Positions 1 through 44,717 of a DNA stretch of 44,717 nt are shown here, piece after piece. Source of the DNA: a phage. Both the position numbers and the translations under genes were made by a program. Where the stretch lies: assembly GCA_036609835.1 (NCBI GenBank), contig GCA_036609835.1_4358.1. One strand, 5' to 3'. The notes under the pieces are model-generated. The model worked only from the letters and a program-made list of their open reading frames with translations. It did no database searches and was not told the origin of the DNA. Every line of letters starts with the position of its first letter. Position 1 is the first letter of the stretch.

Positions 1-127
1 TGAAGGGTAGAAAAGTCGCCAGAATGCTTAATATCATTGTTACGTGCAAGCAAACTCCTTTCGCCACTGCCTATGTTCTCGGCACCGTCCGCGTCAGATA
101 ATGTTTCAACGGTGTTACCGTTGGAAA
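1..127. repeat. Left copy of an exact 127-bp terminal duplication (identical to 44591..44717); most simply the overlap of a circular or circularly permuted assembly
   Basis: Positions 1-127 read identically to 44591-44717; flanking sequence differs (44581-44590 vs 128-137). Confidence 0.9.
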
Positions 128-8626: not shown

Positions 8627-8655
8627 TTGCACACCCCAATATAATAGTGTACTAT
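8627..8655 (+). promoter_or_regulatory. Sigma70-type promoter TTGCAC-N17-TACTAT with AATAG-N4-CTATT palindrome, driving the plus-strand insert operon
   Basis: ttgcacaccccaatataatagtgtactat; 19-mer gcacaccccaatataatag is repeated exactly at 18182; same motif in reverse at 29839-29867. Confidence 0.6.
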
Positions 8656-8696
8656 TCACTTACACCAACGATGTTATCCCAAACAGGAGCTACACC

Positions 8697-17859: not shown

Positions 17860-18179
17860 GTTTCCCCCTTTCTCGATAAGTAAAGCCCCGCCTTAAAGCG
17901 GGGCGCTAGTCCTTATCATTTAAACATAGAAACGGCGTAATCTCAGTAAACCCGTTACTTTTTACACAAGCAATAGAGTATGGCCCTTCCGAACGCGTCA
18001 GCGTAACTACACTCAGGACTTACGTCCCGCTCCGTTACCTGCCCGCGCCGCGGTCGCTTGTTCATACTTCACAAGCTCAGGTGGAGCTTATCATATTTTT
18101 AGTGAAAAGTCAACTATTCGAATAGTTTATTCCAACATTTACAATTCGGAGGAATAACTGGAATACGTAAATAAATAGT

Positions 18180-18208
18180 TTGCACACCCCAATATAATAG
18201 GGTACTAT
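18180..18208 (+). promoter_or_regulatory. Sigma70-type promoter TTGCAC-N17-TACTAT, near-identical to the one at 8627
   Basis: ttgcacaccccaatataatagggtactat followed by AAACAGGAGG RBS and ATG 18236. Confidence 0.6.
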
Positions 18209-18235
18209 TCAGTTAACTTAAACAGGAGGTGAAAA

Positions 18236-18439
18236 ATGTATGCAATTTGCGAAGTAGTTCAAGAGTTCGATGAAGAGTTCGACGGTGACTTGTGCCGGGT
18301 TAAAAAGGTTCTGCAGGTTTTCCCTGACGCAATGTCTGCTTACAAGGCATTAGATATATTTGAACCTGGAAGATACGGGGATTATGACACTGTTCTGAGG
18401 GTTGTCCATGAGCAGGATTTAAACACAAGATTCCGTTGA
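18236..18439 (+). CDS. Hypothetical protein, 67 aa (moron)
   Basis: Opposite strand to flanking head genes; own promoter, strong RBS and downstream terminator; acidic. Confidence 0.6.
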   Translation: MYAICEVVQEFDEEFDGDLCRVKKVLQVFPDAMSAYKALDIFEPGRYGDYDTVLRVVHEQDLNTRFR

Positions 18440-18440
18440 A

Positions 18441-18470
18441 AACTAAGGCCCCTTAATGGGGCCTTTTATC
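18441..18470. terminator. Bidirectional rho-independent terminator
   Basis: aaactaaggccccttaatggggccttttatc. Confidence 0.65.
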
Positions 18471-24452: not shown

Positions 24453-24653
24453 TCAGCAAATATCTTCCAGTACATCGTAATTATCGCTTAGATACTGGAA
24501 TGCAGCCCCTCTTTCTACAAACTCATCGCCAATGGCGAATGTTCCATCAGAGACATCGATTAGGAGGTCATCACGCCCGATAAACTGGAATACCACCTGA
24601 CCTCCATCATCAAGAAGCGTATGCAGCATAAGTAACAATAGTTTTTTGCTCAT
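24453..24653 (-). CDS. Small acidic protein of unknown function, 66 aa
   Basis: Asp/Glu-rich (LLDDGG, DDLLIDVSDG, DNYDVLEDIC); ATGA overlap with upstream gene. Confidence 0.45.
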   Translation of the reverse strand: MSKKLLLLMLHTLLDDGGQVVFQFIGRDDLLIDVSDGTFAIGDEFVERGAAFQYLSDNYDVLEDIC

Positions 24654-24886
24654 TCCCCGCCCTCCTCTTTAGCAATACGTTGCTCTGTTTTAGTGATACC
24701 GCGGCGCGTGAATAACACCGGGCTTGTCTTAACGTGCGTCATAAGGCGGTTATTATAAATTACATGGCGCTCGCATTTCACGTCTTTGCTGTACTTCGCA
24801 ATCGTCATTTCGTTGATGCCGGTTTGCCGACATGTCTCCGCCATCGTGCCAAATTCTTTAATCAGGTTAGGAATGCTGGTAATCAT
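24650..24886 (-). CDS. Small HTH-like protein, 78 aa
   Basis: ATG 24886 in ATGA overlap with preceding small ORF; MAETCRQTGINEMTIAKY is helix-turn-helix-like. Confidence 0.45.
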   Translation of the reverse strand: MITSIPNLIKEFGTMAETCRQTGINEMTIAKYSKDVKCERHVIYNNRLMTHVKTSPVLFTRRGITKTEQRIAKEEGGE

Positions 24887-26121: not shown

Positions 26122-26150
26122 AAATATAATAGGGTCGATGGTAATAGTCA
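26122..26150 (-). promoter_or_regulatory. Sigma70-type promoter TTGACT-N17-TATATT (minus strand)
   Basis: Reverse complement reads ttgactattaccatcgaccctattatatt; just downstream of the lysis-cassette terminator. Confidence 0.5.
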
Positions 26151-26169
26151 ACTAGTCATTGCAGAAAAT

Positions 26170-28717: not shown

Positions 28718-28866
28718 ATTCTTCGCTCACCCCGTTATAGACGCCGTTGTAGTCCCCGTCGCAGATGAACGTGTAGAGCATATCTTCGTACTCGTCCTGC
28801 AACTCACCTAAAGTTACTTCGCTATAATCTTTCATCTTCTGTCTCTCCTCTAGTTTGTGTAAATGA

Positions 28867-28895
28867 ATAGTAGCCTATTCTATCTTAGTGTGCAA
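28867..28895 (-). promoter_or_regulatory. Sigma70-type promoter TTGCAC-N17-TACTAT (minus strand)
   Basis: Reverse complement reads ttgcacactaagatagaataggctactat. Confidence 0.55.
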
Positions 28896-29009: not shown

Positions 29010-29043
29010 AAGTCACAAAGCCAAATAGTAAACTATTGACCTG

Positions 29044-29804: not shown

Positions 29805-29838
29805 TTCTAAATTCCTTATGTCTCGTTTCGATAAGTGA

Positions 29839-29867
29839 ATAGTATCCTATTATGTTGGGGTGTGCAA
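29839..29867 (-). promoter_or_regulatory. Leftward early promoter TTGCAC-N17-TACTAT with AATAG-N4-CTATT palindrome
   Basis: Reverse complement ttgcacaccccaacataataggatactat; near-identical to plus-strand promoters at 8627 and 18180. Confidence 0.6.
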
Positions 29868-30225
29868 GATAATAGTTACGTTGCCGTTGTGATTCTTCGG
29901 GGAGGGTTGTGCCTTTATTCTTATTACTTGGTAACTAAAGGGCAGGCTTAAGCCTGCCCAATAATCGTTACATTTTTACGGTTGCGAATCTACGGCACAT
30001 TAAGAAACAGTAGATATTTCAGCGGGTTACTTCTTTAAATGAGATTTAGATACACTTATCCATAAACCCCAAGGCAAGCATCTCAGCTGTCTGGGAGGGG
30101 TTGACGAATCCCTCGGGGAGGGTTCGTCAACTCCGTAATATATACAAGTCCCAAAACCATTATACAAACATGTGTCAAGAACTTTCAATAACATTTTTGT
30201 AAAGATTAAATATTACAGAGATTGG

Positions 30226-30254
30226 TTGCTTTTACATTCCCGCTATCCTATACT
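30226..30254 (+). promoter_or_regulatory. Rightward early promoter TTGCTT-N17-TATACT
   Basis: ttgcttttacattcccgctatcctatact about 30 nt upstream of ATG 30286. Confidence 0.45.
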
Positions 30255-30285: not shown

Positions 30286-30468
30286 ATGTCGCATTATATG
30301 ACGCAGAATGAAGTAGCTGAACGTATCGGGGTGACACGTCAGACAATTAATAACTGGTTGCGCAGCGGCAAATTCCCTGACTGCTGTATTAAGGTTATGG
30401 GCCGCCGTTTACCGGGAACATTTGACCGTAATAAAGTCGAAGCATGGATTAAGGAGAACGTGAAATGA
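30286..30468 (+). CDS. Small HTH DNA-binding protein (AlpA/excisionase-like), 60 aa
   Basis: ATG 30286 after AAACAGGAGA; MTQNEVAERIGVTRQTINNWLRSGKFP is a classic HTH. Confidence 0.6.
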   Translation: MSHYMTQNEVAERIGVTRQTINNWLRSGKFPDCCIKVMGRRLPGTFDRNKVEAWIKENVK

Positions 30469-30824: not shown

Positions 30825-30953
30825 ATGACAAAGTTAATAGTTCCACAGCTACGCCGCCAGAAACACGGCGCTGACTTCTTCGCACCGGTAAAGATGAACC
30901 GCGCAATGCGCCGTATGCAGGAAGCCTTAGAACGTGCGGAGAAAAAGAAATGA
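30825..30953 (+). CDS. Small basic protein, 42 aa (not in ORF track), coupled to primase-helicase
   Basis: ATG 30825 after AAGGA; stop overlaps primase ATG (ATGA). Confidence 0.3.
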   Translation: MTKLIVPQLRRQKHGADFFAPVKMNRAMRRMQEALERAEKKK

Positions 30954-33190
30954 ATATTGTTTTTGCAACGCTGCGCAACACATTCGATAAAAACCCTGTA
31001 GCGCGTGAGATGCCGCTCGAGCAGTTTGTGGAGTATGTCTGCGATACATCGAAGCGTTTATCCGTGGATCCGTCGTGGTCTAAGGAAGAGTACGACGCTG
31101 CCAAGATTAAGCAGAAAGCTATTGCGCCTGTTGGGGGTCGCCGTAAAAACGCTATCCTGGAAGACAGTGTGGTTAAGTTCGATTTTGACCATCTCAACCG
31201 TACTCAGTACCGCGACCTGACACGCAAATTCAAGAACGCGCCGTTCTTCAATATTCTGCACACAACGGCATCGCATCAGCACGCATGTAAAAACGGAGAT
31301 TACGCTTTCCGCGTTCTGGTTCCGGCTCGCACGCCGTTTAACTCTAACGACGCGTGGATGGTCCAACGGGCTATTTGTGCAGAGTTAGAAATAGATGAAG
31401 CCTTGCGTGACCACTGCACGGAAGACGGCAACCGCCTTATCTATCTGCCACATAGAGAGTCAAAGATAACGGTTACAGAAGGGCGTGTTATCCGTGCTGA
31501 GCGGTACATCAAGAAAGCCGAAGAGATGGGGTTGCGTAAGCGTGAGGCTAAAACACTTGCCGCTGATGAGCATGGGCTTAACGCGGATATAGCGCATTTC
31601 TGCGAAGCCGAGCTTGGCCTTGACGCTTTATCTTCCGGGCGCGGGTACGAAGTCCCATGCCCTAACGAACATCTGCATACAGGCAAAGGCTCCACAAGCA
31701 TCATGCTTGATGGTAAAGAAGTGCGCTTTGTGTGCCAGCATACAAACAACGGCGCTTGCACCGAGCTTAACCGCCGACAGCATTTGGCCCTGCGTATGTG
31801 CGGCCTGCCAGACGAGCTTAACGTAGACAAGCAACCTATCAGTATTAACAGCATTCGTGCGGCTCTGCCTGATTTACCGGATGAAGAGATTGAAGAACTG
31901 CACCGCACAGAGAACGAGGAGCCTATAACTTGCAGCCTCGACGACCTGGAAGACGACGAGGACTCAGAGGAGGACGAGTTACCGGAGCCGGTAAAGGCTG
32001 ATTTCGTCGTTGAGGGGTACATGCCGTCGGATTGTATCTGGGATATCGTCGGTGAGTCTGGCACGTACAAATCATTCTATACGCTGGGGATGATGTATCT
32101 CAGCGCCGCCGGGTACCGGTTTGCAGGCGCTGATACCCAGCGTTGCCACCATTTCTATATTGATGGTGAAGGTGGTGCAGCTACACGCACACGTATCGAT
32201 GCGCTCGCGGCTAAATATGGCGAGGAAGGTAAAGATTATGTACATGTCATCGATATAGGCGAAATACTCGCTACGCATGGTGATAAAAAAATTCCAGCTC
32301 TAATCCGCAGGATGCGCGAAACCGCAGGGGATGAACCTATTGGCATGGTTGCCTTCGACACCCTTAACCAGACGCTGGCCCTGACGATTGATAAGTTCGA
32401 CGAGAACAGTTCATCAACGGCAATCGGTATGGGTAAAGTTATCGCCATCCTGAAAGAAGTGCGCGATGCAACTAAAGCCGCTGTCGGTGTCGTTCACCAT
32501 ACTCCGAAGGGCGGAAAGAAAGCCCGCGGCAGTGGAGCATTGTATGCGGGTGTCGACGTGGAACTGACGATTGAACGTGCAACCGACCGTCAAATAAACG
32601 TATACCACTCGAAATTTAAGCACGGTCCGCAACAGAAGACGGTTGGCATGGTACTGGAGTCTGTACAGTTCCGTGAAGCACCGCCGCCGAAAGAGTACCG
32701 CGCGGTTGAGTTCCTCGGTAGCACAGAGGAATACGGCACAATAGTAAACCTCGACCTGCCTGAGCCGCACAAGGCGCTTGTATTGATGCCGTGGGGCTTC
32801 GAGCCATTCAAGACCGACGAGGAGAAAGAGCGGGAAGAAGGGTTGACGAAAGAAGGTAAGCAAAAAGTAAAGGAAGAAGTTAAACGCGGCAGGGATGAAG
32901 TAAGGAAGGAGTCAATACTTTCGGCACTGGAAGACCTGCAACAGTCAGATGACACAGGTCGCGGTTTTACTCAGCAGCAGATAGTGGCTCGTTCCGGTGA
33001 CTTCTCTGTGACTAACACCCATCTTGATAAAATGTTGAAAGATGGAGAACTAATGCTTGGTTGCGATGCTAACGGCGAAGTAGTACCGAGAACATATCGT
33101 ATACCCGAAAGAATAGGGGATAGATTAAGGCCGAAGACACTATACGAACCAAATGAGATGCTGGTGGTGACAGAGGAGGATTTGGAATAG
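30950..33190 (+). CDS. Primase-polymerase (AEP-type) fused to RepA/DnaB-like helicase ATPase, 746 aa
   Basis: DxD (KFDFDHL) and sxH (TTASHQH) primase motifs; Walker A GESGTYKS and Walker B MVAFDTLNQ. Confidence 0.7.
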   Translation: MNIVFATLRNTFDKNPVAREMPLEQFVEYVCDTSKRLSVDPSWSKEEYDAAKIKQKAIAPVGGRRKNAILEDSVVKFDFDHLNRTQYRDLTRKFKNAPFFNILHTTASHQHACKNGDYAFRVLVPARTPFNSNDAWMVQRAICAELEIDEALRDHCTEDGNRLIYLPHRESKITVTEGRVIRAERYIKKAEEMGLRKREAKTLAADEHGLNADIAHFCEAELGLDALSSGRGYEVPCPNEHLHTGKGSTSIMLDGKEVRFVCQHTNNGACTELNRRQHLALRMCGLPDELNVDKQPISINSIRAALPDLPDEEIEELHRTENEEPITCSLDDLEDDEDSEEDELPEPVKADFVVEGYMPSDCIWDIVGESGTYKSFYTLGMMYLSAAGYRFAGADTQRCHHFYIDGEGGAATRTRIDALAAKYGEEGKDYVHVIDIGEILATHGDKKIPALIRRMRETAGDEPIGMVAFDTLNQTLALTIDKFDENSSSTAIGMGKVIAILKEVRDATKAAVGVVHHTPKGGKKARGSGALYAGVDVELTIERATDRQINVYHSKFKHGPQQKTVGMVLESVQFREAPPPKEYRAVEFLGSTEEYGTIVNLDLPEPHKALVLMPWGFEPFKTDEEKEREEGLTKEGKQKVKEEVKRGRDEVRKESILSALEDLQQSDDTGRGFTQQQIVARSGDFSVTNTHLDKMLKDGELMLGCDANGEVVPRTYRIPERIGDRLRPKTLYEPNEMLVVTEEDLE

Positions 33191-33199
33191 GTAAAAAGA

Positions 33200-33218
33200 A
33201 AGGGGCTTTAAGCCCCTT
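33200..33218. terminator. Hairpin terminator between convergent primase and regulator genes
   Basis: aaggggctttaagcccctt. Confidence 0.55.
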
Positions 33219-33423
33219 CACCGAACGCCAGCCACTTGGCGTCTACTTGCAGCACTTCCGCCAGTTTGAACAGCGTTGCCGGGCGGACGTCCTGAGTTAC
33301 TCCAAGTGCCAGTTGGTTAATCGCGCCCTGGGAAACGCCGGTCAGGGCCGCCAAACGGCGCTGGGAGATGCCGAGTTCTTTACGGCGTTGTTCTACACGG
33401 ATACCTAGTTCAGATGGTTGCAT
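33208..33423 (-). CDS. XRE-family HTH transcriptional regulator (Cro/CI-like), 71 aa
   Basis: QRRKELGISQRRLAALTGVSQGAINQLALG is a canonical XRE helix-turn-helix; divergent from rightward promoters. Confidence 0.7.
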   Translation of the reverse strand: MQPSELGIRVEQRRKELGISQRRLAALTGVSQGAINQLALGVTQDVRPATLFKLAEVLQVDAKWLAFGEGA

Positions 33424-33487
33424 GTCAATTACTCCTTAGTCAGTTGATATGTGAATAGTACCATATTAATTATTTTAGAAAAGCCCA

Positions 33488-33516
33488 TTGACATGTGAAT
33501 AGTTCGCTATTATAGT
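33488..33516 (+). promoter_or_regulatory. Rightward promoter TTGACA-N17-TATAGT with AATAG-N4-CTATT palindrome in the spacer
   Basis: ttgacatgtgaatagttcgctattatagt; a second related element (ttgatatgtgaatagtaccatat) lies at 33443-33465. Confidence 0.65.
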
Positions 33517-33544
33517 TAGCCCATACCAAACGAGAGGGGCGGAT

Positions 33545-33772
33545 ATGAACACAATAACGGGAGCCATAGCTAAAGGTTTTCTAGCAATTTTCGGAGAATC
33601 GCAGGAAGTGTGCACAAAACATAAATTTGTACTTTCTTGCGTAGTAGGGGACGAGTTTGATGGGTTCGATAAACTTGTTGTCTGCGACCATTGCGGGCAA
33701 GAAGCTATTCAACACCCAAACGGTAAATTTGAATTAATAGACGATAGCCTTACAGAAGGCGACGGCGAGTAA
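33545..33772 (+). CDS. Small Cys-containing protein, 75 aa
   Basis: GAGAGGGG RBS; C...C and CDHCG cysteines suggest metal binding. Confidence 0.5.
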   Translation: MNTITGAIAKGFLAIFGESQEVCTKHKFVLSCVVGDEFDGFDKLVVCDHCGQEAIQHPNGKFELIDDSLTEGDGE

Positions 33773-33796
33773 CCCAAATAAACAGGAGAATAAATA

Positions 33797-34315
33797 ATGT
33801 TAGAGAAATTCTTAGTATTACTGGAACGTTTCGTAGTTGCGCATGAACTGATTGCTGCGAACAGTGCACGCCGTACTGAACTGCCGAAGGCTATCACGGC
33901 GCCATATGGTAAAGACGTCGACAGTGGTGTCGCAGAAACTGCAACAATCACGCCTACTGTTGTAAAAGAAGAAACAAAAGAAATCCCGGTCGAGGGTGAA
34001 GACGTAGTTGACACTAAACCGGCAGAAGAAGAGAAGCCGAAACGCAAGCCGCGTAAAGCTAAAGTAGAGGAACCTGCGCCAGAACCGGAAGAAGAGAAAG
34101 AAGAAGTCGATTACAAGTCTCTGCGTGACCAGATTCAGGCCATCGACGATGCAATTAATGAAGGTCCTAGCGATGCCGCGTGCGATGATTCTGATGAACT
34201 GCTGGAAGAGTTCACCGGCAAGAAAATGAAGATTGCCGCGATTAAAGACGAAGACCTGGCTGAATATCTGGAACGCCTGACGGCAATCAAGAACAAGTAT
34301 TTCGAAGAAGAATAA
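33797..34315 (+). CDS. Strongly acidic protein of unknown function, 172 aa
   Basis: AAACAGGAGAA RBS; C-terminal half dominated by Glu/Asp (EEPAPEPEEEKEEVDY, DDSDELLEEF). Confidence 0.55.
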   Translation: MLEKFLVLLERFVVAHELIAANSARRTELPKAITAPYGKDVDSGVAETATITPTVVKEETKEIPVEGEDVVDTKPAEEEKPKRKPRKAKVEEPAPEPEEEKEEVDYKSLRDQIQAIDDAINEGPSDAACDDSDELLEEFTGKKMKIAAIKDEDLAEYLERLTAIKNKYFEEE

Positions 34316-34322
34316 CTATCCC

Positions 34323-34341
34323 GCGGCCTTCGGGCCGCTTT
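34323..34341 (+). terminator. Hairpin terminator / attenuator
   Basis: gcggccttcgggccgc followed by ttt. Confidence 0.45.
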
Positions 34342-34358
34342 AACCTAGGGTCGGAATT

Positions 34359-34562
34359 ATGGCTATTTTAGCTAAGAAAAGTGGTCTTATGATTTCAGGG
34401 CGAGTTATAGAAGAAACAGATAACTTTGTATGCTTCCACGCGACAGATAACAAACGTCCTACGTATGTACAAAAGTCGGATAAAACACAAAAAGTTTTCG
34501 ACGGCGATTTTTCTATCGAAGATGTTTTCACGTGGATTAATTCTGCGAGGGTAAAGAAATGA
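34359..34562 (+). CDS. Hypothetical protein, 67 aa
   Basis: ORF with downstream ATGA coupling. Confidence 0.45.
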   Translation: MAILAKKSGLMISGRVIEETDNFVCFHATDNKRPTYVQKSDKTQKVFDGDFSIEDVFTWINSARVKK

Positions 34563-34831
34563 TTTACCAACTCTACCGCGCCGTTGACAGGCGGGATAGC
34601 GCAGAGGCGCTATGGCTATTGCGCGCGCCGTCCGGTGCGCACCAGATGGAAGAGATGGCTTACTTAGGCAAAGTACCGAGGCCTAAAGATATAGGCCGCC
34701 ACGTGTCGCAGATTAAGCGCACGACTTTCGCCAAGCCAGACTTTTATGTCTTTGAGTCGATGTATGGGTGGGCTATGCACTGTGACCACAAGACACGACA
34801 TTTAATTGACCAGTGGGAGAACAGGGTATGA
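34559..34831 (+). CDS. Hypothetical protein, 90 aa
   Basis: ATGA-coupled on both sides. Confidence 0.45.
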   Translation: MIYQLYRAVDRRDSAEALWLLRAPSGAHQMEEMAYLGKVPRPKDIGRHVSQIKRTTFAKPDFYVFESMYGWAMHCDHKTRHLIDQWENRV

Positions 34832-36069
34832 TTTTAAAGGAACGTGGGGGCAATAACGATGTGCATGCCTTACTGTCGCCGTCAGGTGCTAAAAAATGGC
34901 TGTCATGCGCTGCATCACTGGCATGTGAGAAAGATATCCCTAACACGTCTGGTAAAGCCGCTGTATTAGGAACCGCCATGCACACCATAGCTGAGGTCCA
35001 TCTCAACGCCTATATACGCGGCACTGCGTTGCCGTTGGAGCGTGAAGTCGGCGCTTACGTACTGGATGAAGGCAAAGGTCAGATTAAGGCGCTAATCAGC
35101 CCGATGAAAGGCGCGGTACTGATTACGGCGGACATGATTGAGCAGGTGCGCAAGTACACCGACTACTGCAAAGCGATTATAGATGTAGCGACTTACGCCA
35201 AGCTGGAAATGCGTGTTAATCTTACTGAGGTATTGCATCCGGGGTATGAAGGCGTTGAGACGTTCGGAACCGCTGACCTCGTTGCTGTCCAGGAACTGGC
35301 AAACACCGACGAGCACATGCTCATTATCGGCGACCTGAAAACCGGGCGGCATCGCGTCGAAGCGAAAGAAAACAAGCAGCTTATGCTTTACGCTCTCGGT
35401 GTTTATCGTCGACTCAAGAGACGTTATAACATAACAACCGTTCGTCTGGTCATCTTCCAGCCTTACGCTGGGGGTGCGACAGAGTGGGACATCTCGGTTG
35501 AAGGACTGGAACTGTTCGCTAAGTTCGCGCAGAAACGCGCGCTGTTAGCGCTTGATGCGTATTTCCGTGGCAAGAAGAACCTGAAAGCGTCGGACTTCAA
35601 GCCATCGGTAGATGGTTGTCAGTGGTGCCGGTTCTCTGAACAATGCGCTGCGCGTACAAAGACGGTTAATTCTGTACTGGCGGAAGAACTGGAAGACGAC
35701 TTTGTGCTGGAACTGACGCCGGAGCAACTCGTAGCTGAGTATGAGAAGTTGCCGCTGTTGCGCCAGCACATCGACAAGGTTGAGAAAGCTATGGCGGCCG
35801 CGTTGCATTCAGGTAAGAAAGTTCCTGGTTACAAGTTGGTTGAAGGCCGCCCGGGTAATCGCGCATGGAAGGATACCGATGCGGTATTCGAAAAGTACGG
35901 TACTATGCTGCAAAAGGTAGTTCTCATGACGCCGACCGAAGCTGTTAAAGTTATACCGGAAGAAGAACTGAAAGACTTTATTACTCGTAACCCCGGCGCG
36001 CCATGTGTTGCAACGGCAGACGACAAGCGTCCTGAGTGGAATCAGGTAACAGAGGAGGATTTAGAATGA
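34828..36069 (+). CDS. PD-(D/E)XK nuclease (DUF2800/Cas4-like), about 414 aa
   Basis: ATG 34828 (ATGA overlap); N-terminal HALLSPSGAKKWLSCAAS; internal D..E.K-type nuclease residues (IGDLKTGRH). Confidence 0.6.
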   Translation: MILKERGGNNDVHALLSPSGAKKWLSCAASLACEKDIPNTSGKAAVLGTAMHTIAEVHLNAYIRGTALPLEREVGAYVLDEGKGQIKALISPMKGAVLITADMIEQVRKYTDYCKAIIDVATYAKLEMRVNLTEVLHPGYEGVETFGTADLVAVQELANTDEHMLIIGDLKTGRHRVEAKENKQLMLYALGVYRRLKRRYNITTVRLVIFQPYAGGATEWDISVEGLELFAKFAQKRALLALDAYFRGKKNLKASDFKPSVDGCQWCRFSEQCAARTKTVNSVLAEELEDDFVLELTPEQLVAEYEKLPLLRQHIDKVEKAMAAALHSGKKVPGYKLVEGRPGNRAWKDTDAVFEKYGTMLQKVVLMTPTEAVKVIPEEELKDFITRNPGAPCVATADDKRPEWNQVTEEDLE

Positions 36070-36317
36070 TTCGTAAAATGTTCAGAGTAATTGGCGGTTT
36101 TGTGGCGTGTATTGTTTTCTGGGTTCTTATGCTACCCCTAACGCTACCAACATTTATCTTAATGTGTATTACGGTATGTATAGCGCAAACTCGCGACATA
36201 GAAGCCATCCTGAGTGATAAATCGTGGAAGACACAGGCGCTTCGATTCATAAACAGCATGAAATGGCCTAACAAATATATCGAGATAGTTGAGAAAATAA
36301 CTGGCTGGAAGGGTTGA
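36066..36317 (+). CDS. Small membrane protein, 83 aa
   Basis: ATG 36066 (ATGA overlap); two hydrophobic helices. Confidence 0.45.
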   Translation: MIRKMFRVIGGFVACIVFWVLMLPLTLPTFILMCITVCIAQTRDIEAILSDKSWKTQALRFINSMKWPNKYIEIVEKITGWKG

Positions 36318-36342
36318 CACCTGAATAGTTAGCTATTATAGT
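36314..36342 (+). promoter_or_regulatory. Promoter TTGACA-N17-TATAGT with AATAG-N4-CTATT palindrome, upstream of the SSB gene
   Basis: ttgacacctgaatagttagctattatagt. Confidence 0.6.
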
Positions 36343-39634: not shown

Positions 39635-39922
39635 ATGAGTACGCCTGAGGGGCGCATACAGAAATACGCAAAAGAGCGATTCGAGGCCATCGGGGGCCTC
39701 GTCCGTAAACTGTCTTATGAGGGGCGCTCCGGCGCTCCCGACCTGCTGGTAATTCTCCCGGGCGGCATCGTCTGGTTCGTCGAGGTGAAGAAAGACGAAA
39801 GCACGAAGCCTGACCCACACCAGTTACGAGAGCATGAGCGGATGCGTAAACGTGGTGCGAATGTTTTTGTCGTCGGGTCGTTCAAACAGGTTGACGACCT
39901 AATAGCGAACTATTATAGTTAG
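39635..39922 (+). CDS. VRR-NUC domain nuclease, 95 aa
   Basis: GAPDLLVILPGGIVWFVEVKKDE carries the D...E.K core. Confidence 0.6.
   Translation: MSTPEGRIQKYAKERFEAIGGLVRKLSYEGRSGAPDLLVILPGGIVWFVEVKKDESTKPDPHQLREHERMRKRGANVFVVGSFKQVDDLIANYYS
39887..39915 (+). promoter_or_regulatory. Promoter TTGACG-N17-TATAGT with AACTAT/ATAGTT palindrome, inside the 3' end of the VRR-NUC gene
   Basis: ttgacgacctaatagcgaactattatagt; downstream tagttagccctacacc matches the 33488 promoter. Confidence 0.5.
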
Positions 39923-39952: not shown

Positions 39953-40144
39953 ATGAAATACGAATATGACCGTAAACCAGCCCGCGACATCGTACCTGGC
40001 GACATGATTTTCAACGTTAAGACCCGCCGCCCTGTTGCCGTTGATACGGTATTCGTCGAGTCAAACGGTAAACTGGTTATCGAAGATGTAACCGGTAACG
40101 TTACGGCATTCGGGCGTAAAGAGTTAGTTCTGGTGGCGAAATGA
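39953..40144 (+). CDS. Hypothetical protein, 63 aa
   Basis: AAGGAAT RBS; ATGA-coupled to methyltransferase gene. Confidence 0.45.
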   Translation: MKYEYDRKPARDIVPGDMIFNVKTRRPVAVDTVFVESNGKLVIEDVTGNVTAFGRKELVLVAK

Positions 40145-41100
40145 ACTATTACAACGAATGGGATAAAGGCGCAGCCGCGTGGCTGCGTGAACTAATAAAA
40201 CAGGGTCATATACCTTTTGGAGTTGTAGATGAAAGAAGCATTACCGAAGTTAAGCCAGAAGACCTCGACGGGTTCACCCAGTGTCATTTTTTCGCTGGTA
40301 TCGGCGGCTGGCCTCTCGCGCTCAGACTTGCGGGAGTTTCGGAAGATACGCCTATCTGGACGGGAAGCCCGCCTTGCCAACCGTTTAGCGCGGCAGGAAA
40401 GCAACTCGGACAGTTCGACCCGAGACACCTCGCACCTGTGTTCCTCGACCTCATCAGCGAGTGCCACCCTCCAGTCCTCTTTGGGGAACAGGTTGCGCCA
40501 GCAATTGCAAAATCGTGGATGTGCGATTTACAAACTCACCTGGAAGGAGAAGACTACGCCGTCGGGTTTGCCGTACTCCCAGCTTGTAGCGTCGGCGCAC
40601 CGCACAAACGCGACAGACTGTTCTTTGGCGCACACCAATTGGCCTACACCGACAGCGAACGACTTCAAAGGCAGCGGGGTGACAGTGATACGCAAGGATG
40701 GGAAGGACAGAACCTTCGACCGTCTGGATTATGCTACGGAACAGGGTTTGATGGCGGCGTGGCAAACGCCGAAGGCAATGGACGGGGTGTTTGCGACACC
40801 CCGAACCAGTGGGAGGCCGATGCATCGGGCTACGCATCTGCAAACGCAGGCCATAGCGCAACTAACAGACAACAGCGACTTACCGCCGGTGGCGAAGCCG
40901 ACCCGCATCACAGCTTCTGGTCAGATGCTGACTGGCTCGGATGCAGGGATGGAAAGTTCCGGCCAGTTGAACCCAGCACATTCCCGCTGGCTAATGGGAT
41001 ACCCGCCAGAGTGGGACGATTGCGCGGTTACGGCAATGCCATCGTCCCGCAAGTAGCCGCTGAATTTATAAAGGCATTCATGGGGGCGGTAAATGAGTAA
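40141..41100 (+). CDS. DNA (cytosine-5) methyltransferase; annotated frame (319 aa) appears discontinuous, with the middle segment reading better in the +1 frame (ORF 40229..41056)
   Basis: Frame 1: FFAGIGG (I), [13 protein letters not shown] (IV), FGEQV (VI-like), PHKRDRLFF (VIII), [12 protein letters not shown] (X). Frame 2 over 40640-41020: [28 protein letters not shown]. Confidence 0.6.
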
Positions 41101-42517
41101 GTTTCAAAGGCGCGAATACCAGAAGCTCATGACTTCGTTTATGCTGCAACACCCGCGCTGTAATATATGGTGCGGAATGGGGGGAGGTAAAACCTCCTCC
41201 ACTATGTGGGTGCTCAACCGCCTGTTCCGCAACGGGCAGCTTACGGAAGAGGACCGCGTGTTAATCCTTGCCCCGTTACGTGTTGCGTCCGGTACGTGGC
41301 CCGCTGAACAAGAGAAATGGCAATTCCCTTGTCTGCGTGTCGTAGATGCAACTGGTTCGGAGAAGCGCCGCATCGCAGCGCTGGAGTCAGATGCTAACGT
41401 GGTGTGCACTAACTACGAAGTTATCGAGTGGCTAATTGACTACTACGGCAAAGACGACTGGCCTTTTACGGTTATCGTTGCCGATGAAAGCACGAAGCTT
41501 AAATCGTTCCGCAGCCGTTCGGGTGGTAGCAAGCGGGCAAAGGCGCTCAGCAAGGTTGCGTTCGGAAAGGTTAAGCGTTTCATCAACCTGACAGGCACAC
41601 CGTCACCAAACGGCCTCAAAGACTTGTGGGGTCAGAACTGGTTTATCGACGCTGGCGAGCGCCTCGGCTCTTCGTACACAGCATTCACCGACCGCTGGTT
41701 TAACTCGGTACAGAAAGGTAAATCGGCTATGGCCCGCGAGTATCATGCACGACCGGGTGCGGATAATGAGATTCATCAGAAGATGAAAGACATCAGCCTG
41801 ACCATAGACCCTGCCGAGTGGTTTGGTTGTGAAGCGCCTGTTATCGTACCGGTGGAAATAGACCTGCCGAAGAAAGCGCGTCAGGCGTACATAGATATGG
41901 AGGAGAAGTTATTCGCAGAACTGGAGAGCGGGGAAGTTGAAGCGGCTAACGCTGCGGCGAAGACCTCAAAGTGCTTGCAGATTGCATCTGGTGCTGTATA
42001 TGTATCCGGGCCAGACGGCGAAGCAACCAAAGAATGGGAGAAAGTGCACGACACGAAACTGGATGCGCTGGCGTCCATTGTCGAGGAGTTACAGGGTGCG
42101 CCGTTACTGGTAGCCTATCAGTTTAAACACGAACTGGAGCGTATCCTTAAGCGATTCCCACAGGCACAGGCGTTCGCCAAAGGCGCTAGGGGGAACAAGC
42201 AGATGGAAGCGTGGAACCGTGGGGAAATACCTATGCTCCTGATACACCCAGCCTCCGCGGGCCACGGGCTGTCGCTACAACACGGCGGGCACCACATGGC
42301 CTTTATGAGTCAGGGGTGGAACCTGGAACATTATCTGCAGGTTATCGAACGCATAGGTCCTGTAAGGCAGATGCAATCTGGGTACAAACGGTCAGTATTC
42401 ATTTATCAAATAATAGCCCGAGATACTCTTGATGAAGTTGTCGCCACGCGTACAGATGAGAAAAGGTCTGTACAGGACGAACTACTTAATTATATGAAAC
42501 GTAGGAGTAAGAAATGA
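41093..42517 (+). CDS. SNF2-family helicase/ATPase, 474 aa
   Basis: Walker A CGMGGGKTSS, DEXH-like VIVADESTKLK, NLTGTPSPNGL; ATGAGTAA overlap with methyltransferase stop. Confidence 0.7.
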   Translation: MSKFQRREYQKLMTSFMLQHPRCNIWCGMGGGKTSSTMWVLNRLFRNGQLTEEDRVLILAPLRVASGTWPAEQEKWQFPCLRVVDATGSEKRRIAALESDANVVCTNYEVIEWLIDYYGKDDWPFTVIVADESTKLKSFRSRSGGSKRAKALSKVAFGKVKRFINLTGTPSPNGLKDLWGQNWFIDAGERLGSSYTAFTDRWFNSVQKGKSAMAREYHARPGADNEIHQKMKDISLTIDPAEWFGCEAPVIVPVEIDLPKKARQAYIDMEEKLFAELESGEVEAANAAAKTSKCLQIASGAVYVSGPDGEATKEWEKVHDTKLDALASIVEELQGAPLLVAYQFKHELERILKRFPQAQAFAKGARGNKQMEAWNRGEIPMLLIHPASAGHGLSLQHGGHHMAFMSQGWNLEHYLQVIERIGPVRQMQSGYKRSVFIYQIIARDTLDEVVATRTDEKRSVQDELLNYMKRRSKK

Positions 42518-42999
42518 GCAAGGTATCATACGACCCTGAAACCGGTATTTTCACATGGGTCGAAACAAAACGTAGGGGTTTTGTTGGAAAGAAAGCCGGA
42601 TGTTTTTGTCCGCGGGAGGGGTACATTCGTATCCGAATAAACGGAAAACTAGAACTAGCACATCGGTTAGCATGGGACATATGCAATCCAGATAACCCAC
42701 TTACCCCACAGGAACAGATAGACCATATCAATCACATTCGAACCGATAACCGAATATGCAACCTGCGGAAAGTTACCAACACTGAAAATAGCCGCAACGC
42801 ATCGATAGGGGTAAACAATACTAGCGGCGCTCTTGGTGTATGGCGGGAAAAGAGAAGAAACAAATGGGTAGCAGAGATAAAAGTCGACAGAAGAAAAATA
42901 CATCTAGGACAGTTTGATGATTTTGGAGAAGCTGTTGCCGCGCGTAAAGCCGCGGAAGCTGCTTACGGATTTCATAAAAACCACGGAGAAACCGCGTGA
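42514..42999 (+). CDS. HNH homing endonuclease with AP2-type DNA-binding domain, 161 aa
   Basis: IDHINHIRTDNRICNLRKVTNTEN (HNH) and GVWREKRRNKWVAEIKVDRRKIHLGQFDDFGEAVAARKAA (AP2-like); locally AT-rich. Confidence 0.7.
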   Translation: MSKVSYDPETGIFTWVETKRRGFVGKKAGCFCPREGYIRIRINGKLELAHRLAWDICNPDNPLTPQEQIDHINHIRTDNRICNLRKVTNTENSRNASIGVNNTSGALGVWREKRRNKWVAEIKVDRRKIHLGQFDDFGEAVAARKAAEAAYGFHKNHGETA

Positions 43000-43164: not shown

Positions 43165-44717
43165 AGCCAACGACATTCGGGAGTTAGCGAAAGCTAAAGC
43201 CTGAGCCTGCGTCGTAAACTCAGCGATGAAGAAGTCACTAAATCTGATAACAGCACCTGAACCTCCCCCAGTAGAGACGTACAGACCTACAGTACCGTTA
43301 GCGGAAGCTTTACCCACCCCAAATGTGCTAATCCACTCACCAGACTTAGTATAAACGCTACCCATAGTAATACCTGACGTTATACTCACATCTGCTGTTC
43401 CTGATTGGAGGCGAGAGTTGACGCCCCACACGTACCATCTACCGGATGTAAGTGTCGTTCTTGACGCTACCATTTCATATAAACCGGACCCAGGGAATGA
43501 AAATTCGGTACATGTAGCGGCGTGAAGTCCGTCAGATACAGTCGAACCGTTAACGGTACCGCTACCAGAAAAATTATGGCTACCTGAGTCAAATGTGATA
43601 GCTTTTAACTTATTCCCCGTCGGCGTATTAAACACTCGTCCCCTTGTTAAATTTCCTCGTAGAGACAAGTTTGTAGTGGCTACCGTTGCGGATTGCGACG
43701 CGACAGACTCTACAATAACGTCCTTTCCAGAACTGCCGTTTAAATACACATCGTGGGCTACAATGGTGCTTTGTGCATCCACTACAATATCCTGATTACC
43801 ATCAGCGTTGTCAAAACGGCAACCATAAGTTACTAAGTTGGAGTTGGATAGCTCGATGTTGTTGAGATAAGAATACTCAGCAAAGAATATCGCGGTGTCT
43901 ACCAACTTGAGAACTCGCGGTTTTTGCGCCACGCCATCTACCTGAACAGCCGATGATGTTGCAATAGCTTCCATCCATACATTGGATACCCCGCATGGAG
44001 ATGTAGGGCAGTCACCCGATTTGCTTTTTAAGTATATCCCGCCGCCTCCGGAAGCCTCAATAATGGAGTCTTTAAGCCACCATCCGCCTATCCCACCGTT
44101 ATCGACAGTACCGTTTAGGTAGACGGCATAGGTGGAGATGCCGTCGAAGTGGATATTGTAGAGGGTATCGGCCCCGCAATGCATCTCCGAGCCACTAATC
44201 GCGTAATACCCCCAATCACACGTAGATACCCCAATACTTCTCCATGTATTACCGATGTTCCCGGAAGGCTTCTGAATGGCCTTGTTGATGTTGTGGATGT
44301 ATAAATCACTAAAATTATGACGTCCGGAATATTGGTCTGACGGGTCAAAACTAATACCTACGGCCCCAGTTGTACCTGTACCATCTACGGCAAAACCACC
44401 GCTGTGTCGAAACTGCCAGTGCGGGGTGGATAAATTAACCTGTACAGTATTTGCATAGTTTGCCGATGGTTTTAATATTGCAGCACCACCTACACCTTTT
44501 ATCTGCTTACTACCCAGAGTGATTGCTTCTGTATACTCACCCGGAGAAACAATTAAGTCGTTTTTAGTTAACGACGCATCTACCGCGGCTTGAAGGGTAG
44601 AAAAGTCGCCAGAATGCTTAATATCATTGTTACGTGCAAGCAAACTCCTTTCGCCACTGCCTATGTTCTCGGCACCGTCCGCGTCAGATAATGTTTCAAC
44701 GGTGTTACCGTTGGAAA
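43162..44717 (-). CDS. Tailspike / receptor-binding protein, C-terminal part (5' end continues across the window junction to ATG 557)
   Basis: ORF 43162..44643 is open upstream to the window end and in phase with 1..557; Gly/Ser/Thr/Asn-rich repetitive sequence consistent with a beta-helix domain. Confidence 0.7.
   Translation of the reverse strand, partial: SNGNTVETLSDADGAENIGSGERSLLARNNDIKHSGDFSTLQAAVDASLTKNDLIVSPGEYTEAITLGSKQIKGVGGAAILKPSANYANTVQVNLSTPHWQFRHSGGFAVDGTGTTGAVGISFDPSDQYSGRHNFSDLYIHNINKAIQKPSGNIGNTWRSIGVSTCDWGYYAISGSEMHCGADTLYNIHFDGISTYAVYLNGTVDNGGIGGWWLKDSIIEASGGGGIYLKSKSGDCPTSPCGVSNVWMEAIATSSAVQVDGVAQKPRVLKLVDTAIFFAEYSYLNNIELSNSNLVTYGCRFDNADGNQDIVVDAQSTIVAHDVYLNGSSGKDVIVESVASQSATVATTNLSLRGNLTRGRVFNTPTGNKLKAITFDSGSHNFSGSGTVNGSTVSDGLHAATCTEFSFPGSGLYEMVASRTTLTSGRWYVWGVNSRLQSGTADVSITSGITMGSVYTKSGEWISTFGVGKASANGTVGLYVSTGGGSGAVIRFSDFFIAEFTTQAQALAFANSRMSLA
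44591..44717. repeat. Right copy of the 127-bp terminal duplication
   Basis: Identical to 1..127. Confidence 0.9.

What the first reader, a model, noticed from the sequence alone, without database searches (positions are those of the whole stretch)
33208..33520. Cro/CI-like repressor divergent from tandem palindrome-containing promoters in a genome without an integrase
An XRE-type HTH gene (71 aa) is transcribed leftward from an intergenic region holding two related rightward promoter/operator elements (33443-33471, 33488-33516). No integrase, excisionase-integrase pair or attachment site was recognised. The regulator may be a lytic timing switch or a remnant of a temperate ancestor, and it is a prime candidate binder of the genome-wide palindrome.
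Basis: partly seen in the sequence, partly recalled or inferred. Interest (0 to 1): 0.45.

Follow-up and report, generated by a model that had tools for sequence, protein, structure and literature searches.

The report
Cro-like repressor with genome-wide promoter operators
A small, highly conserved Cro-type DNA-binding protein of a virulent E. coli phage (Kagunavirus) sits next to two copies of a 14-bp palindrome that also lies inside about eight other phage promoters, so it most likely acts as a feedback brake on early and middle phage genes, not as a leftover of lysogeny.

Summary
ORF 33208-33423(-) is a 71-aa XRE/HTH_3 protein whose closest solved relatives are 434 Cro, 434 repressor and the P22 C2 N-terminal domain. 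The 121-bp region upstream holds a near-consensus rightward promoter (33488-33516) and an 84%-identical degenerate copy (33444-33468).

The window is a complete Kagunavirus genome with no integrase, and this module is absent from 5,426 complete E. coli genomes.

New here:
- The palindrome AATAG-N4-CTATT occurs 8 times exactly and 3 times with one mismatch (about 1 expected).
- It sits inside promoters in two different registers.
- Across 38 Kagunavirus genomes its half-sites never change, while the central 4 nt and the linker to the -35 vary freely.
- Jerseyvirus has the same palindrome at matching promoters. Cornellvirus has a more divergent XRE, lacks the other small HTH protein, and carries a symmetrically altered palindrome, TATTA-N6-TAATA.
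- The XRE gene is under strong purifying selection (pN/pS 0.06).

Best reading: a dimeric Cro-like repressor that regulates itself and represses early and middle promoters across the genome. Binding is inferred, not shown.

The gene is already annotated in hundreds of records. I found no description of the operator regulon in the papers I could search. Moderate interest.

The parts
33208..33423 (-). XRE/Cro-like HTH gene, 71 aa, DNA-binding domain only; recognition helix SQGAINQLALG
   Evidence: Intact in 37/37 related loci, pN/pS 0.06.
33199..33219 (.). Bidirectional intrinsic terminator between the convergent helicase-primase gene (stop codon 33188-33190) and the XRE gene. The hairpin overlaps the last XRE codons.
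   Evidence: 9-bp stem, then a T run on the - strand, inverted repeat I3; sequence.
33432..33437 (-). Shine-Dalgarno AAGGAG of the XRE gene
   Evidence: Read from the sequence. The motif is retained in all 38 relatives; one has a substitution 3 nt away.
33454..33467 (.). O1: one-mismatch palindrome AATAGTACCATATT. It lies in a degenerate copy (33444-33473) of the P_R element and sits at about +5 of the predicted XRE transcript.
   Evidence: The GAATAGTA.CATATTAAT core is kept in all 39 sequences, while the -35-like hexamer varies.
33472..33499 (-). Predicted promoter of the XRE gene (P_xre): TTCACA-16-TAAAAT, 10/12. Its -35 abuts and overlaps O2.
   Evidence: the -10 is conserved in the relatives. 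The transcription start is not mapped.
33488..33516 (+). P_R: TTGACA-17-TATAGT, 11/12. Class A promoter of the rightward operon (ORF75, ORF172 ... DUF2800 nuclease).
   Evidence: TTGACA and CTATTATAGT are conserved in the 38 aligned sequences.
33498..33511 (.). O2: exact palindrome AATAGTTCGCTATT in the P_R spacer. Its centre is about -18.5 from P_R and about -39.5 from P_xre.
   Evidence: Half-sites invariant, centre 4 nt in 6 variants, linker to the -35 in 11 variants including length changes.
33545..33772 (+). First gene downstream of P_R: 75 aa, four Cys, no Pfam family, phrog_32657
36314..36342 (+). Class A promoter TTGACA-17-TATAGT with palindrome 36324-36337, upstream of the ssDNA-binding and DNA polymerase genes
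   Evidence: Conserved half-sites and variable centre in 31 relatives. A matching site exists in Ent1.
39891..39919 (+). Class A promoter TTGACG-17-TATAGT with palindrome 39901-39914, upstream of the methylase/helicase block
8627..8656 (+). Class B promoter TTGCAC-17-TACTAT with palindrome 8643-8656 covering the -10. It drives the rightward sie/nuclease/phosphatase operon (ATG 8697).
   Evidence: (family D8)
18180..18209 (+). Class B promoter with palindrome 18196-18209. It drives a 67-aa rightward ORF (18236-18439) that ends at a terminator, inside the late-gene block.
28866..28895 (-). Class B promoter, read on the - strand, with palindrome 28866-28879. It drives leftward small genes (ATG 28835).
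29838..29867 (-). Class B promoter, read on the - strand, with palindrome 29838-29851. This is the main leftward promoter of the control region (first gene ATG 29804).
   Evidence: A matching site exists in Ent1.
29024..29037 (.). Exact palindrome with no recognisable promoter, between a leftward ORF and the terminator 29010->28989
   Evidence: Kept with a different centre in pC16EC0033-2.
26143..26156 (.). One-mismatch palindrome overlapping the -35 of the leftward promoter TTGACT-17-TATATT (26151->26123)
   Evidence: Conserved in XY1, pC16EC0033-2 and Ent1.
18105..18118 (.). One-mismatch palindrome 91 bp from the 18196 site. It overlaps a perfect 16-bp palindrome, AACTATTCGAATAGTT.
30226..30254 (+). 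Context: operator-free candidate early promoter TTGCTT-17-TATACT ahead of the HTH_17 gene (30287/30298-30468) and the helicase-primase gene
   Evidence: Read from the sequence. It falls below the scan threshold. HTH_17 Pfam match.

Best explanation
The 71-aa protein is a stand-alone Cro-type repressor in the 434 Cro / P22 C2 N-terminal domain fold class.

Inferred mechanism:
- It binds as a dimer to a 14-16 bp operator, (T/G)AATAG-N4-CTATT(A): two 5-6 bp contacted half-sites around a 4-bp centre that the protein does not contact. This is the geometry of P22 operators.
- At its own locus, the strong site O2 lies in the spacer of the near-consensus rightward promoter P_R and abuts the -35 of the protein's own leftward promoter. 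The weaker site O1 lies over the predicted start of its own transcript. The protein would therefore repress P_R and regulate itself.
- The same operator lies in the spacer of two further rightward replication-gene promoters (class A). It covers the -10 of four TTGCAC-17-TACTAT promoters (class B) for the leftward early genes and two rightward gene cassettes.
- As the protein accumulates, it would turn down most early and middle host-polymerase (sigma-70) transcription. Promoters without the operator would escape: the candidate early promoter of the HTH_17/helicase-primase operon, and a candidate promoter ahead of the terminase genes.

This is a lytic-cycle feedback and timing brake, comparable to what lambda Cro does at P_L and P_R, in a phage with no CI partner and no integrase.

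Shown: the fold class, the anatomy of the sites, their enrichment, and their conservation pattern. Inferred: binding, the direction of regulation, transcription starts and timing.
For: 1. Protein class. HTH_3 E 1.9e-13. 434 Cro E 2e-6, P22 C2 E 2e-3. Five-helix model with Foldseek top hits 434 repressor, 434 Cro and P22 C2. The recognition helix SQGAINQL resembles SNVAISQW of P22 C2.
2. Enrichment. The palindrome gives 11 hits at up to 1 mismatch against 1.0 expected, 8 exact against 0.04. Six of the 12 best sigma-70-like sites in the genome overlap it.
3. Register. It sits in the spacer in class A and over the -10 in class B, a 6-nt shift. It is therefore a separate element and not part of a promoter hexamer. 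Both positions would block RNA polymerase.
4. Selection. In 38 genomes GAATAG and CTATTATA never change, while the centre has 6 variants and the linker to the -35 has 11, at two independent promoters. Synonymous divergence in the adjacent gene is 0.22. P22 repressor contacts positions 2-7 and 12-17 and not 8-11 (PMC4267663), which is the same 6+4+6 layout.
5. Association. The XRE upstream region is the only place with two copies within 50 bp.
6. Comparison across genera. Jerseyvirus Ent1 (XRE 49% identical) has TAATAG-N4-CTATTA at matching promoters. Cornellvirus St162 and VSiP (XRE 39% identical) have no AATAG-N4-CTATT. They have instead TATTA-N6-TAATA, a symmetric change in both half-sites, 3 exact and 4-5 near copies against about 1 expected, again inside promoters. 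The HTH_17 protein is absent from St162, and NinH is no more diverged there than in Ent1.
7. Selection on the gene. Intact in 37/37 relatives, pN/pS 0.06.
Against: - No binding data exist. The assignment of the protein to the site rests on association.
- In Cornellvirus the XRE-proximal promoter carries only a 2-mismatch copy of that genus's palindrome.
- The recognition helices of Kagunavirus (SQGAINQ) and Jerseyvirus (SQSLITH) differ, yet the core half-site is the same. St162 (TQSAISH) is no more different from Ent1 than the window is. No residue-to-base covariation can therefore be read off.
- Class B promoters match the consensus at only 8 of 12 positions and no transcription start is mapped.
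- If late genes are reached by read-through from operator-bearing leftward promoters, global repression would also hit them.
- The one Kagunavirus time-course (PMC12645636) is coarse. By gene order it places the probable XRE gene ('004, specific DNA binding') in the broad 'middle' class, which neither supports nor refutes the model.
Confidence: 0.55

Rival explanations
1. Immunity or maintenance repressor of a non-integrative carrier state (plasmid-like pseudolysogeny). By occupying nearly all promoters, the protein silences the genome. Its own gene and the operator-free HTH_17 / RepA-family helicase-primase operon stay on and keep the genome as an episome.
For: - A whole Kagunavirus genome is deposited as the circular 'plasmid' pC16EC0033-2 of an E. 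coli blood isolate, 96% identical over 30900-36100.
- SGP-C, a SETP3-like Jerseyvirus, was reported to give turbid plaques, immune and spontaneously releasing 'lysogens', and a possibly episomal genome (PMC8790156).
- O2 is centred about -39.5 from the predicted P_xre start. That position resembles lambda O_R2 relative to P_RM, so positive autoregulation and bistability are conceivable.
- The promoter ahead of the helicase-primase operon has no operator.
Against: - There is no partition, protelomerase, integrase or transposase gene.
- This module is not found in 5,426 complete E. coli genomes, including their plasmids. There are no close relatives in 185,579 species-representative genomes.
- The protein has no oligomerisation or S24 cleavage domain.
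- Kagunavirus isolates are described as strictly lytic in the papers read.
- The SGP-C evidence does not exclude a receptor-phase-variation carrier culture, and one plasmid record could be carry-over.
- DNA polymerase and most replication genes would also be repressed.
Confidence: 0.15
2. The XRE protein is only a local autoregulator, or binds something else. The genome-wide palindrome is bound by a different factor: NinH-like 24653-24886(-), the HTH_17 protein, an unrecognised phage protein, or a host protein.
For: - Two other HTH-type proteins are encoded in the window.
- The recognition helices of Kagunavirus and Jerseyvirus XRE differ while the core site is the same.
- The Cornellvirus XRE-proximal site is degenerate.
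Against: - HTH_17 is absent from St162, which still has promoter palindromes.
- NinH is about equally diverged in Ent1 (64%) and St162 (69%), although the palindrome type changes only in the latter.
- A host factor would not explain a genus-specific symmetric change of both half-sites between phages of the same Salmonella host (Ent1 against St162 and VSiP).
- The densest pair of sites is at the XRE gene itself.
Confidence: 0.15
3. The palindrome binds no protein. It is an intrinsic promoter feature, either shared ancestry of duplicated promoters or a spacer/-10 context favoured by sigma-70.
For: The right half overlaps or abuts the -10 region, so part of its conservation is explained by promoter function. 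The promoters clearly share ancestry (30-40 nt families D2 and D8).
Against: - The left half GAATAG lies in the spacer, where sigma-70 promoters need no particular sequence. It is invariant while its neighbours on both sides vary.
- The element sits in two different registers relative to the -10.
- An exact copy exists without any promoter (29024).
- Cornellvirus changed both half-sites symmetrically.
Confidence: 0.05
4. A decaying, functionless remnant of a temperate ancestor's immunity region.
For: The nearest relatives outside the subfamily are Cro and CI proteins of temperate phages. No lysogeny partner genes remain.
Against: - Intact in 37/37 relatives; pN/pS 0.06 at pS 0.22.
- An orthologue is found in all three genera examined, adjacent to the helicase-primase gene and upstream of the replication operon.
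- The operators are conserved.
Confidence: 0.03

Closest known systems
Phage 434 Cro (and the 434 repressor DNA-binding domain)
   Same: Same length (71 aa), a single five-helix HTH domain, and the best hit by both sequence and fold. 434 Cro is a small repressor that binds 14-bp palindromes overlapping divergent promoters and turns down early transcription during lytic growth (established knowledge).
   Different: - Only about 39% identical, with a different recognition helix (SQGAINQ against QQSIQLI).
- The operator is AATAG-N4-CTATT, not ACAA-N6-TTGT.
- No cI partner, no tripartite O_R/O_L, no integrase.
- The operators are spread over eight or more promoters genome-wide.
Phage P22 C2 repressor N-terminal domain and its operators
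   Same: The recognition helix is similar (SNVAISQW against SQGAINQL). The operator geometry is the same: contacted positions 2-7 and 12-17 around 4 non-contacted central bases (PMC4267663). The AG-N4-CT junction matches the TTAAG-N4-CTTAA core that I recall from memory for P22.
   Different: C2 is a 216-aa two-domain, RecA-sensitive lysogeny repressor with cooperative binding. This protein is the DNA-binding domain alone, in a phage without lysogeny genes.
Genome-wide repressor regulons of temperate phages: P1 C1 operators, mycobacteriophage L5 gp71 'stoperators' (recalled from memory, not tested here)
   Same: One phage repressor with many operator copies scattered over the genome, several of them inside or just after promoters. 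The promoter-less site at 29024 is reminiscent of a stoperator.
   Different: Those sites are asymmetric and those phages are temperate (plasmid or integrated prophage). The proteins are not related to this one.
Restriction-modification controller (C) proteins such as C.AhdI and C.BclI
   Same: Small XRE proteins among the fold matches. They regulate themselves through palindromic boxes and act as timing devices.
   Different: No endonuclease gene is adjacent. The only methylase (40141-41100) is 6.7 kb away in another transcription unit. The sites are spread genome-wide.
The orthologous gene in published Guernseyvirinae genomes (annotated 'transcriptional repressor DicA', 'Cro', 'XRE family regulator'; ORF49 of SGP-C)
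   Same: The same gene at 94-99% identity in Kagunavirus and 49% in Jerseyvirus. SGP-C ORF49 was discussed as Cro-like (PMC8790156).
   Different: I found no record or paper among those I could search that describes its operators or the promoter regulon. Two likely sources, Turner 2012 and Anany 2015, are not held.

Membership tests
XRE / lambda-repressor-like HTH (Pfam HTH_3) | Profile match above the curated threshold | tested here: met
   PF01381, 50.6 bits against a cutoff of 23, E 1.9e-13, residues 11-65
XRE / lambda-repressor-like HTH (Pfam HTH_3) | Five-helix globular DNA-binding fold | tested here: met
   AF2 model with helices 5-17, 21-28, 32-39, 48-57 and 62-66, pLDDT 81. Foldseek hits to 434 repressor and 434 Cro at TM 0.72-0.77, probability 1.0.
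XRE / lambda-repressor-like HTH (Pfam HTH_3) | Dimer binding to a palindromic operator | not testable with these tools
   Indirect only: two palindrome copies in its own upstream region, and half-sites conserved around a free 4-nt centre
Lambdoid CI/Cro bistable immunity switch | Divergent pair of repressor genes (cI and cro) flanking shared operators | tested here: not met
   The divergent neighbour (33545-33772) has no HTH and no Pfam family. This is the only full HTH_3 protein found among the ORFs scanned; the 56-aa HTH_17 protein has only a partial HTH_3 match.
Lambdoid CI/Cro bistable immunity switch | CI with a C-terminal oligomerisation / S24 self-cleavage domain | tested here: not met
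   71 aa, HTH domain only
Lambdoid CI/Cro bistable immunity switch | Operators overlapping divergent promoters | tested here: met
   O2 lies in the P_R spacer and abuts the -35 of the leftward promoter. O1 lies over the predicted leftward start. The promoters are predicted, not mapped.
Temperate phage (lifestyle) | Integrase, transposase, protelomerase or partition genes | tested here: not met
   None in the Pfam scans of 22 ORFs, which covered the larger ORFs and those not shared with XY1. None in the annotation of XY1, Ent1, St162, VSiP or pC16EC0033-2. Not every small ORF was scanned.
Temperate phage (lifestyle) | Prophage copies in host genomes | tested here: not met
   No match in 5,426 complete E. 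coli genomes. Only distant XRE proteins in 185,579 species genomes. One exception of unclear meaning: a whole phage genome deposited as a plasmid.
R-M controller (C) protein | Co-transcribed or adjacent restriction endonuclease gene | tested here: not met
   The gene stands alone between its promoter and the terminator 33199-33219. No endonuclease gene is adjacent.
Type II toxin-antitoxin antitoxin (HigA / HipB type) | Partner toxin gene in the same operon | tested here: not met
   The gene is monocistronic. Its neighbours are a convergent helicase-primase gene and a divergent 75-aa ORF.

The most novel reading that the evidence does not exclude
Guernseyvirinae, which are classed as strictly virulent and widely proposed for therapy and biocontrol, can enter an integrase-independent repressed episomal state. 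The Cro-like protein occupies the operators in nearly all promoters and may activate its own promoter from O2 at about -40. Only the operator-free RepA-family helicase-primase operon and a ~215-nt RNA from the control region stay on, so the genome is kept as a plasmid. This would explain the 'plasmid' pC16EC0033-2 and the SGP-C 'lysogens'. The different palindromes of Kagunavirus/Jerseyvirus and Cornellvirus would then be immunity specificities.
Probability: 0.13. Interest if true: 0.75.

Novelty: new variant of a known kind. Interest (0 to 1): 0.42.

Why it matters
Kagunavirus and Jerseyvirus phages are among the most often isolated and most often proposed therapeutic and biocontrol phages for E. 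coli K1/UPEC and Salmonella. Their genomes carry a 'repressor' gene. Some papers ignore it ('no repressor'), and at least one takes it as proof of lysogeny.

If this protein works as a genome-wide feedback repressor with a simple 14-16 bp operator, three things follow:
1. The lifestyle ambiguity gets a mechanistic answer.
2. The temporal programme of a whole subfamily that lacks its own RNA polymerase is explained.
3. Phage engineering gains a compact orthogonal repressor-operator pair, with a natural second specificity in Cornellvirus, in a 41-45 kb chassis already used for synthetic biology.

If the repressed-episome reading were true, it would bear on the safety classification of these phages.

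Tried and rejected
- Palindrome at up to 2 mismatches: 21 hits against 17 expected, so only the 0-1 mismatch set is meaningful.
- Alternative reading of class B promoters, with TATAAT just upstream of the palindrome as the -10: rejected. It fails at the matching Ent1 site (GTTAAT), whereas TTGCAy-17-TAyTAT holds at every copy.
- St162 direct-repeat search: no promoter family. ATTAG-N4-CTAAT as the St162 operator: not enriched. TATTA-N6-TAATA is enriched.
- Rfam: no family anywhere in the window.
- Transcriptome paper on Kagunavirus K1B4: the gene numbering could only be matched by inference, and the supplement holds host genes only.
- Genome-reduction paper: phage seszw is a Skatevirus, so it is not informative.
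- Serratia phage eta (unstable lysogens without an integrase) shares only the structural module with this group.
- Host-factor sites (ARG box, IHF and others) were considered from memory only. None fits the half-sites.
- Genome-collection scan: only XRE proteins at 49% identity or less, in unrelated bacteria.
- Turner 2012 and Anany 2015, the papers most likely to discuss promoters of these phages, are not in the held library. Prior description cannot be excluded.
Full report
**What the window is.** The 44,717-nt window has identical 127-nt ends, so it is a closed genome of about 44.6 kb. The 32-36 kb region is 91-95% identical to E. coli phages of the genus Kagunavirus, subfamily Guernseyvirinae (XY1, phiEc3/4, BASEL Bas70-75). 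Weaker matches reach several hundred Salmonella Jerseyvirus records. Gene order follows XY1:
- leftward structural, lysis and small early genes from about 29.8 kb down to 0.5 kb;
- a 700-bp control region at 29.6-30.3 kb;
- a rightward replication arm from 30.3 to 43 kb.

**Checking the observation.** ORF 33208-33423(-) encodes 71 aa.
- It matches Pfam HTH_3 at 50.6 bits (cutoff 23) and PHROG_4 'transcriptional repressor'.
- Its best solved relatives by sequence are 434 Cro (E 2e-6), 434 repressor and P22 C2.
- A single-sequence AlphaFold2 model (pLDDT 81) has the five helices of this fold. Foldseek ranks the 434 repressor DNA-binding domain, 434 Cro and the P22 C2 N-terminal domain at the top. 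R-M controller proteins, SinR, HipB and HigA are also in the list.
- The protein is the DNA-binding domain only.
- A hairpin at 33199-33219 serves as a two-way terminator for this gene and the convergent helicase-primase gene.

They are a true direct repeat, 84% identical over 25 nt and 44 bp apart.
- The right one is TTGACA-17-TATAGT (11/12) with the exact palindrome AATAGTTCGCTATT in its spacer.
- The left one is a 9/12 match with a one-mismatch palindrome.
Its -35 abuts the right palindrome and its predicted start falls on the left palindrome.

**No integrase.** The verdict holds.
- The XY1, Ent1, St162, VSiP and pC16EC0033-2 annotations have none.
- The window ORFs absent from XY1 are a C5 methylase, an HNH endonuclease, an amidase and similar genes.
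- The module has no match in 5,426 complete E. coli genomes.
- It has no close relative in 185,579 species-representative genomes.

**The palindrome is a genome-wide, promoter-embedded element.** AATAG-N4-CTATT occurs 8 times exactly and 3 times with one mismatch, against 1.0 expected at that stringency. It is by far the most over-represented non-terminator palindrome, 8 against 0.04. At two mismatches the count falls to chance. The sites fall into two architectures.
- *Class A:* TTGACA-N4/5-[palindrome]ATAGT. The palindrome fills the spacer. These are the rightward promoters at 33488, 36314 and 39891, ahead of replication genes.
- *Class B:* TTGCAC-N10-[palindrome]. The -10 (TACTAT) lies inside the right half-site. 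There are four copies, each 28-42 nt upstream of an ORF start in the predicted direction:
  - 8627(+), the sie/nuclease/phosphatase operon;
  - 18180(+), a 67-aa cassette with its own terminator inside the late genes;
  - 28895(-) and 29867(-), the leftward early genes.
- Further copies lie at 29024 (no promoter), at 26143 (over the -35 of a leftward TTGACT-17-TATATT promoter) and at 18105.

Six of the twelve best sigma-70-like matches in the genome overlap a palindrome. The element sits in two registers, 6 nt apart relative to the -10, so it is not part of a promoter hexamer. In both registers a bound dimer would exclude RNA polymerase.

**Conservation pattern.** I fetched 37 related viral contigs and added the window and XY1. 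At P_R, TTGACA, (T)GAATAG and CTATTATA never change. The four central bases occur in six versions. The 4-5 nt between the -35 and the palindrome occur in eleven versions, including length changes. The promoter at 36314 shows the same pattern in 31 genomes. Pairwise synonymous divergence in the adjacent gene is 0.22, so neutral positions had ample time to change. Invariant 5-6 bp half-sites around a free 4-bp centre are what P22 repressor sites look like: it contacts positions 2-7 and 12-17 and not 8-11 (PMC4267663). The left element keeps GAATAGTA.CATATTAAT in all 39 sequences, while its '-35' drifts (TCGATA, CCGATA, TTTATA). That argues it is an operator and not a second promoter.

**Who binds it?** The evidence is circumstantial but points one way.
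1. The only place with two copies within 50 bp is the XRE gene's own upstream region.
2. Jerseyvirus Ent1, whose XRE is 49% identical, has TAATAG-N4-CTATTA at the matching promoters: sie, the ssDNA-binding gene, the resolvase, the control region and P_R.
3. Cornellvirus St162 and VSiP have an XRE only 39% identical, placed as the first gene of the helicase-primase operon. They have no AATAG-N4-CTATT. They carry TATTA-N6-TAATA instead, that is TAATAG->TATTAG with the mirror change in the other half. There are 3 exact and 4-5 near copies against about 1 expected, again over the spacer or -10 of promoters.
4. The window's second HTH protein (HTH_17, 56 aa, 30298-30468) has no counterpart in St162. 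The NinH-like protein is about equally diverged in Ent1 (64%) and St162 (69%).

A symmetric change of both half-sites in phages of the same host argues against a host factor. It also argues against a purely promoter-intrinsic origin.

Weak points:
- The Cornellvirus XRE-proximal promoter carries only a 2-mismatch copy.
- The recognition helices (SQGAINQ, SQSLITH, TQSAISH) do not map simply onto the base change.

**Most likely mechanism (confidence about 0.55).** The protein is a stand-alone Cro-type repressor.
- O2 is centred about -18.5 from P_R and about -39.5 from the predicted P_xre start. O1, the weaker site, is at about +4.5 of P_xre.
- Occupancy of O2 shuts P_R. O1 caps the protein's own synthesis.
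- The same protein turns down the other class A and class B promoters as it accumulates.
- Promoters without the operator would escape: the candidate early promoter at 30226-30254 (HTH_17 and helicase-primase), a strong leftward promoter at 30188->30159, and a candidate promoter ahead of the terminase genes at 24168->24139.

The result is a feedback and timing brake on early and middle transcription in a phage that relies on host RNA polymerase. Strong purifying selection (37/37 intact, pN/pS 0.06) rules out a decaying remnant. The fold class, site anatomy, enrichment and conservation are shown. Binding, the direction of regulation, transcription starts and timing are inferred.

**Rivals.**
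- *A carrier-state or immunity repressor (0.15).* Three things keep this alive. First, pC16EC0033-2 is a complete Kagunavirus genome deposited as a circular plasmid of an E. coli blood isolate. Second, the SETP3-like phage SGP-C was reported to give turbid plaques and immune, phage-releasing, possibly episomal 'lysogens' (PMC8790156). Third, the O2/P_xre geometry resembles lambda O_R2/P_RM. Against it: there are no partition or integration genes, no copies in host genomes, and the papers read describe these phages as lytic.
- *Another binder (0.15), a promoter-intrinsic element (0.05) and a vestige (0.03).* These are treated in the structured fields.
- *Toxin-antitoxin and R-M controller readings.* Both fail on gene context: the gene is monocistronic and no partner gene is adjacent.

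**Comparison with known systems.** It works like 434/lambda Cro acting in the lytic cycle, with P22-type operator geometry. It is a member of the XRE/HTH_3 fold family. It is not a lambdoid immunity switch:
- there is no cI partner;
- there is no C-terminal domain;
- there is no integrase;
- the operators are spread over eight or more promoters, not grouped at O_L and O_R.

The wide scatter of sites recalls P1 C1 operators and mycobacteriophage L5 stoperators (from memory), but those sites are asymmetric and belong to temperate phages.

**Novelty and score.** The gene is already annotated in hundreds of records as repressor, DicA or Cro. I found no description of its operators or of the promoter regulon in the searchable literature. 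Two likely sources are not held. I rate it a new variant of a known kind, interest 0.42. It is a tidy, testable regulon in a much-used phage group and bears on the 'repressor gene in a lytic phage' confusion. A specialist would not be startled by it.

Noticed in passing
window 29935-30188 (- strand): A strong operator-free leftward promoter (TTGAAA-18-TATAAT, 11/12, 30188->30159) is followed about 210 nt later by an intrinsic terminator (29959->29940), with no ORF between them. The predicted RNA folds far better than shuffled controls (z -4.6) and includes a long hairpin at 30098-30135. There is no Rfam match. It is a candidate small RNA or replication primer in the control region.
   Followed up: partly
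L058 = CP088689.1, whole record (44,086 bp): A record deposited as 'plasmid pC16EC0033-2' of an E. coli bloodstream isolate from Korea is a complete Kagunavirus genome. It is 96% identical over window 30900-36100 and has the same palindrome set. Either the phage was carried with the clinical isolate or it is carry-over.
   Followed up: partly
L042 (St162) and L060 (VSiP), whole genomes: Cornellvirus genomes place the XRE gene as the first gene of the helicase-primase operon, on the same strand. They lack the HTH_17 gene and use a different promoter palindrome, TATTA-N6-TAATA. This looks like a second 'specificity' within the subfamily.
   Followed up: partly
window 18110-18125: A perfect 16-bp palindrome, AACTATTCGAATAGTT, carries the same half-sites in outward order (CTATT-N2-AATAG). 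It lies 91 bp upstream of the class B operator at 18196 and is conserved in XY1 and pC16EC0033-2.
   Followed up: no
window 18180-18465: A self-contained rightward cassette inside the leftward late-gene block: class B promoter, a 67-aa acidic ORF (18236-18439, weak phrog_27256 match) and a two-way terminator. XY1 lacks the exact class B palindrome at this position; I did not check whether it has the ORF.
   Followed up: partly
window 1-127 and 44591-44717: The 127-nt ends are identical, an assembly overlap of a circularly permuted or closed genome. The tailspike gene on the - strand runs across the junction. Its N-terminal 46 aa match the XY1 endosialidase, and the rest differs.
   Followed up: partly
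window 40141-41100 and 42514-42999: A C5 cytosine methylase and an HNH endonuclease are present here and have no counterpart in XY1. The methylase has no adjacent restriction gene, so it is an orphan.
   Followed up: partly
window 29897-29912 and 30112-30127: The motif TCGGGGAGGGTT occurs twice in the control region. The second copy lies inside the 30098-30135 hairpin. It may relate to the replication origin or to the RNA noted above.
   Followed up: no
window 33545-33772: The first gene downstream of P_R encodes a 75-aa protein with four cysteines (C23, C31, C46, C49), possibly a small zinc-binding protein. It has no Pfam family. It is conserved as phrog_32657 but is replaced by other small genes in many relatives.
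   Followed up: no
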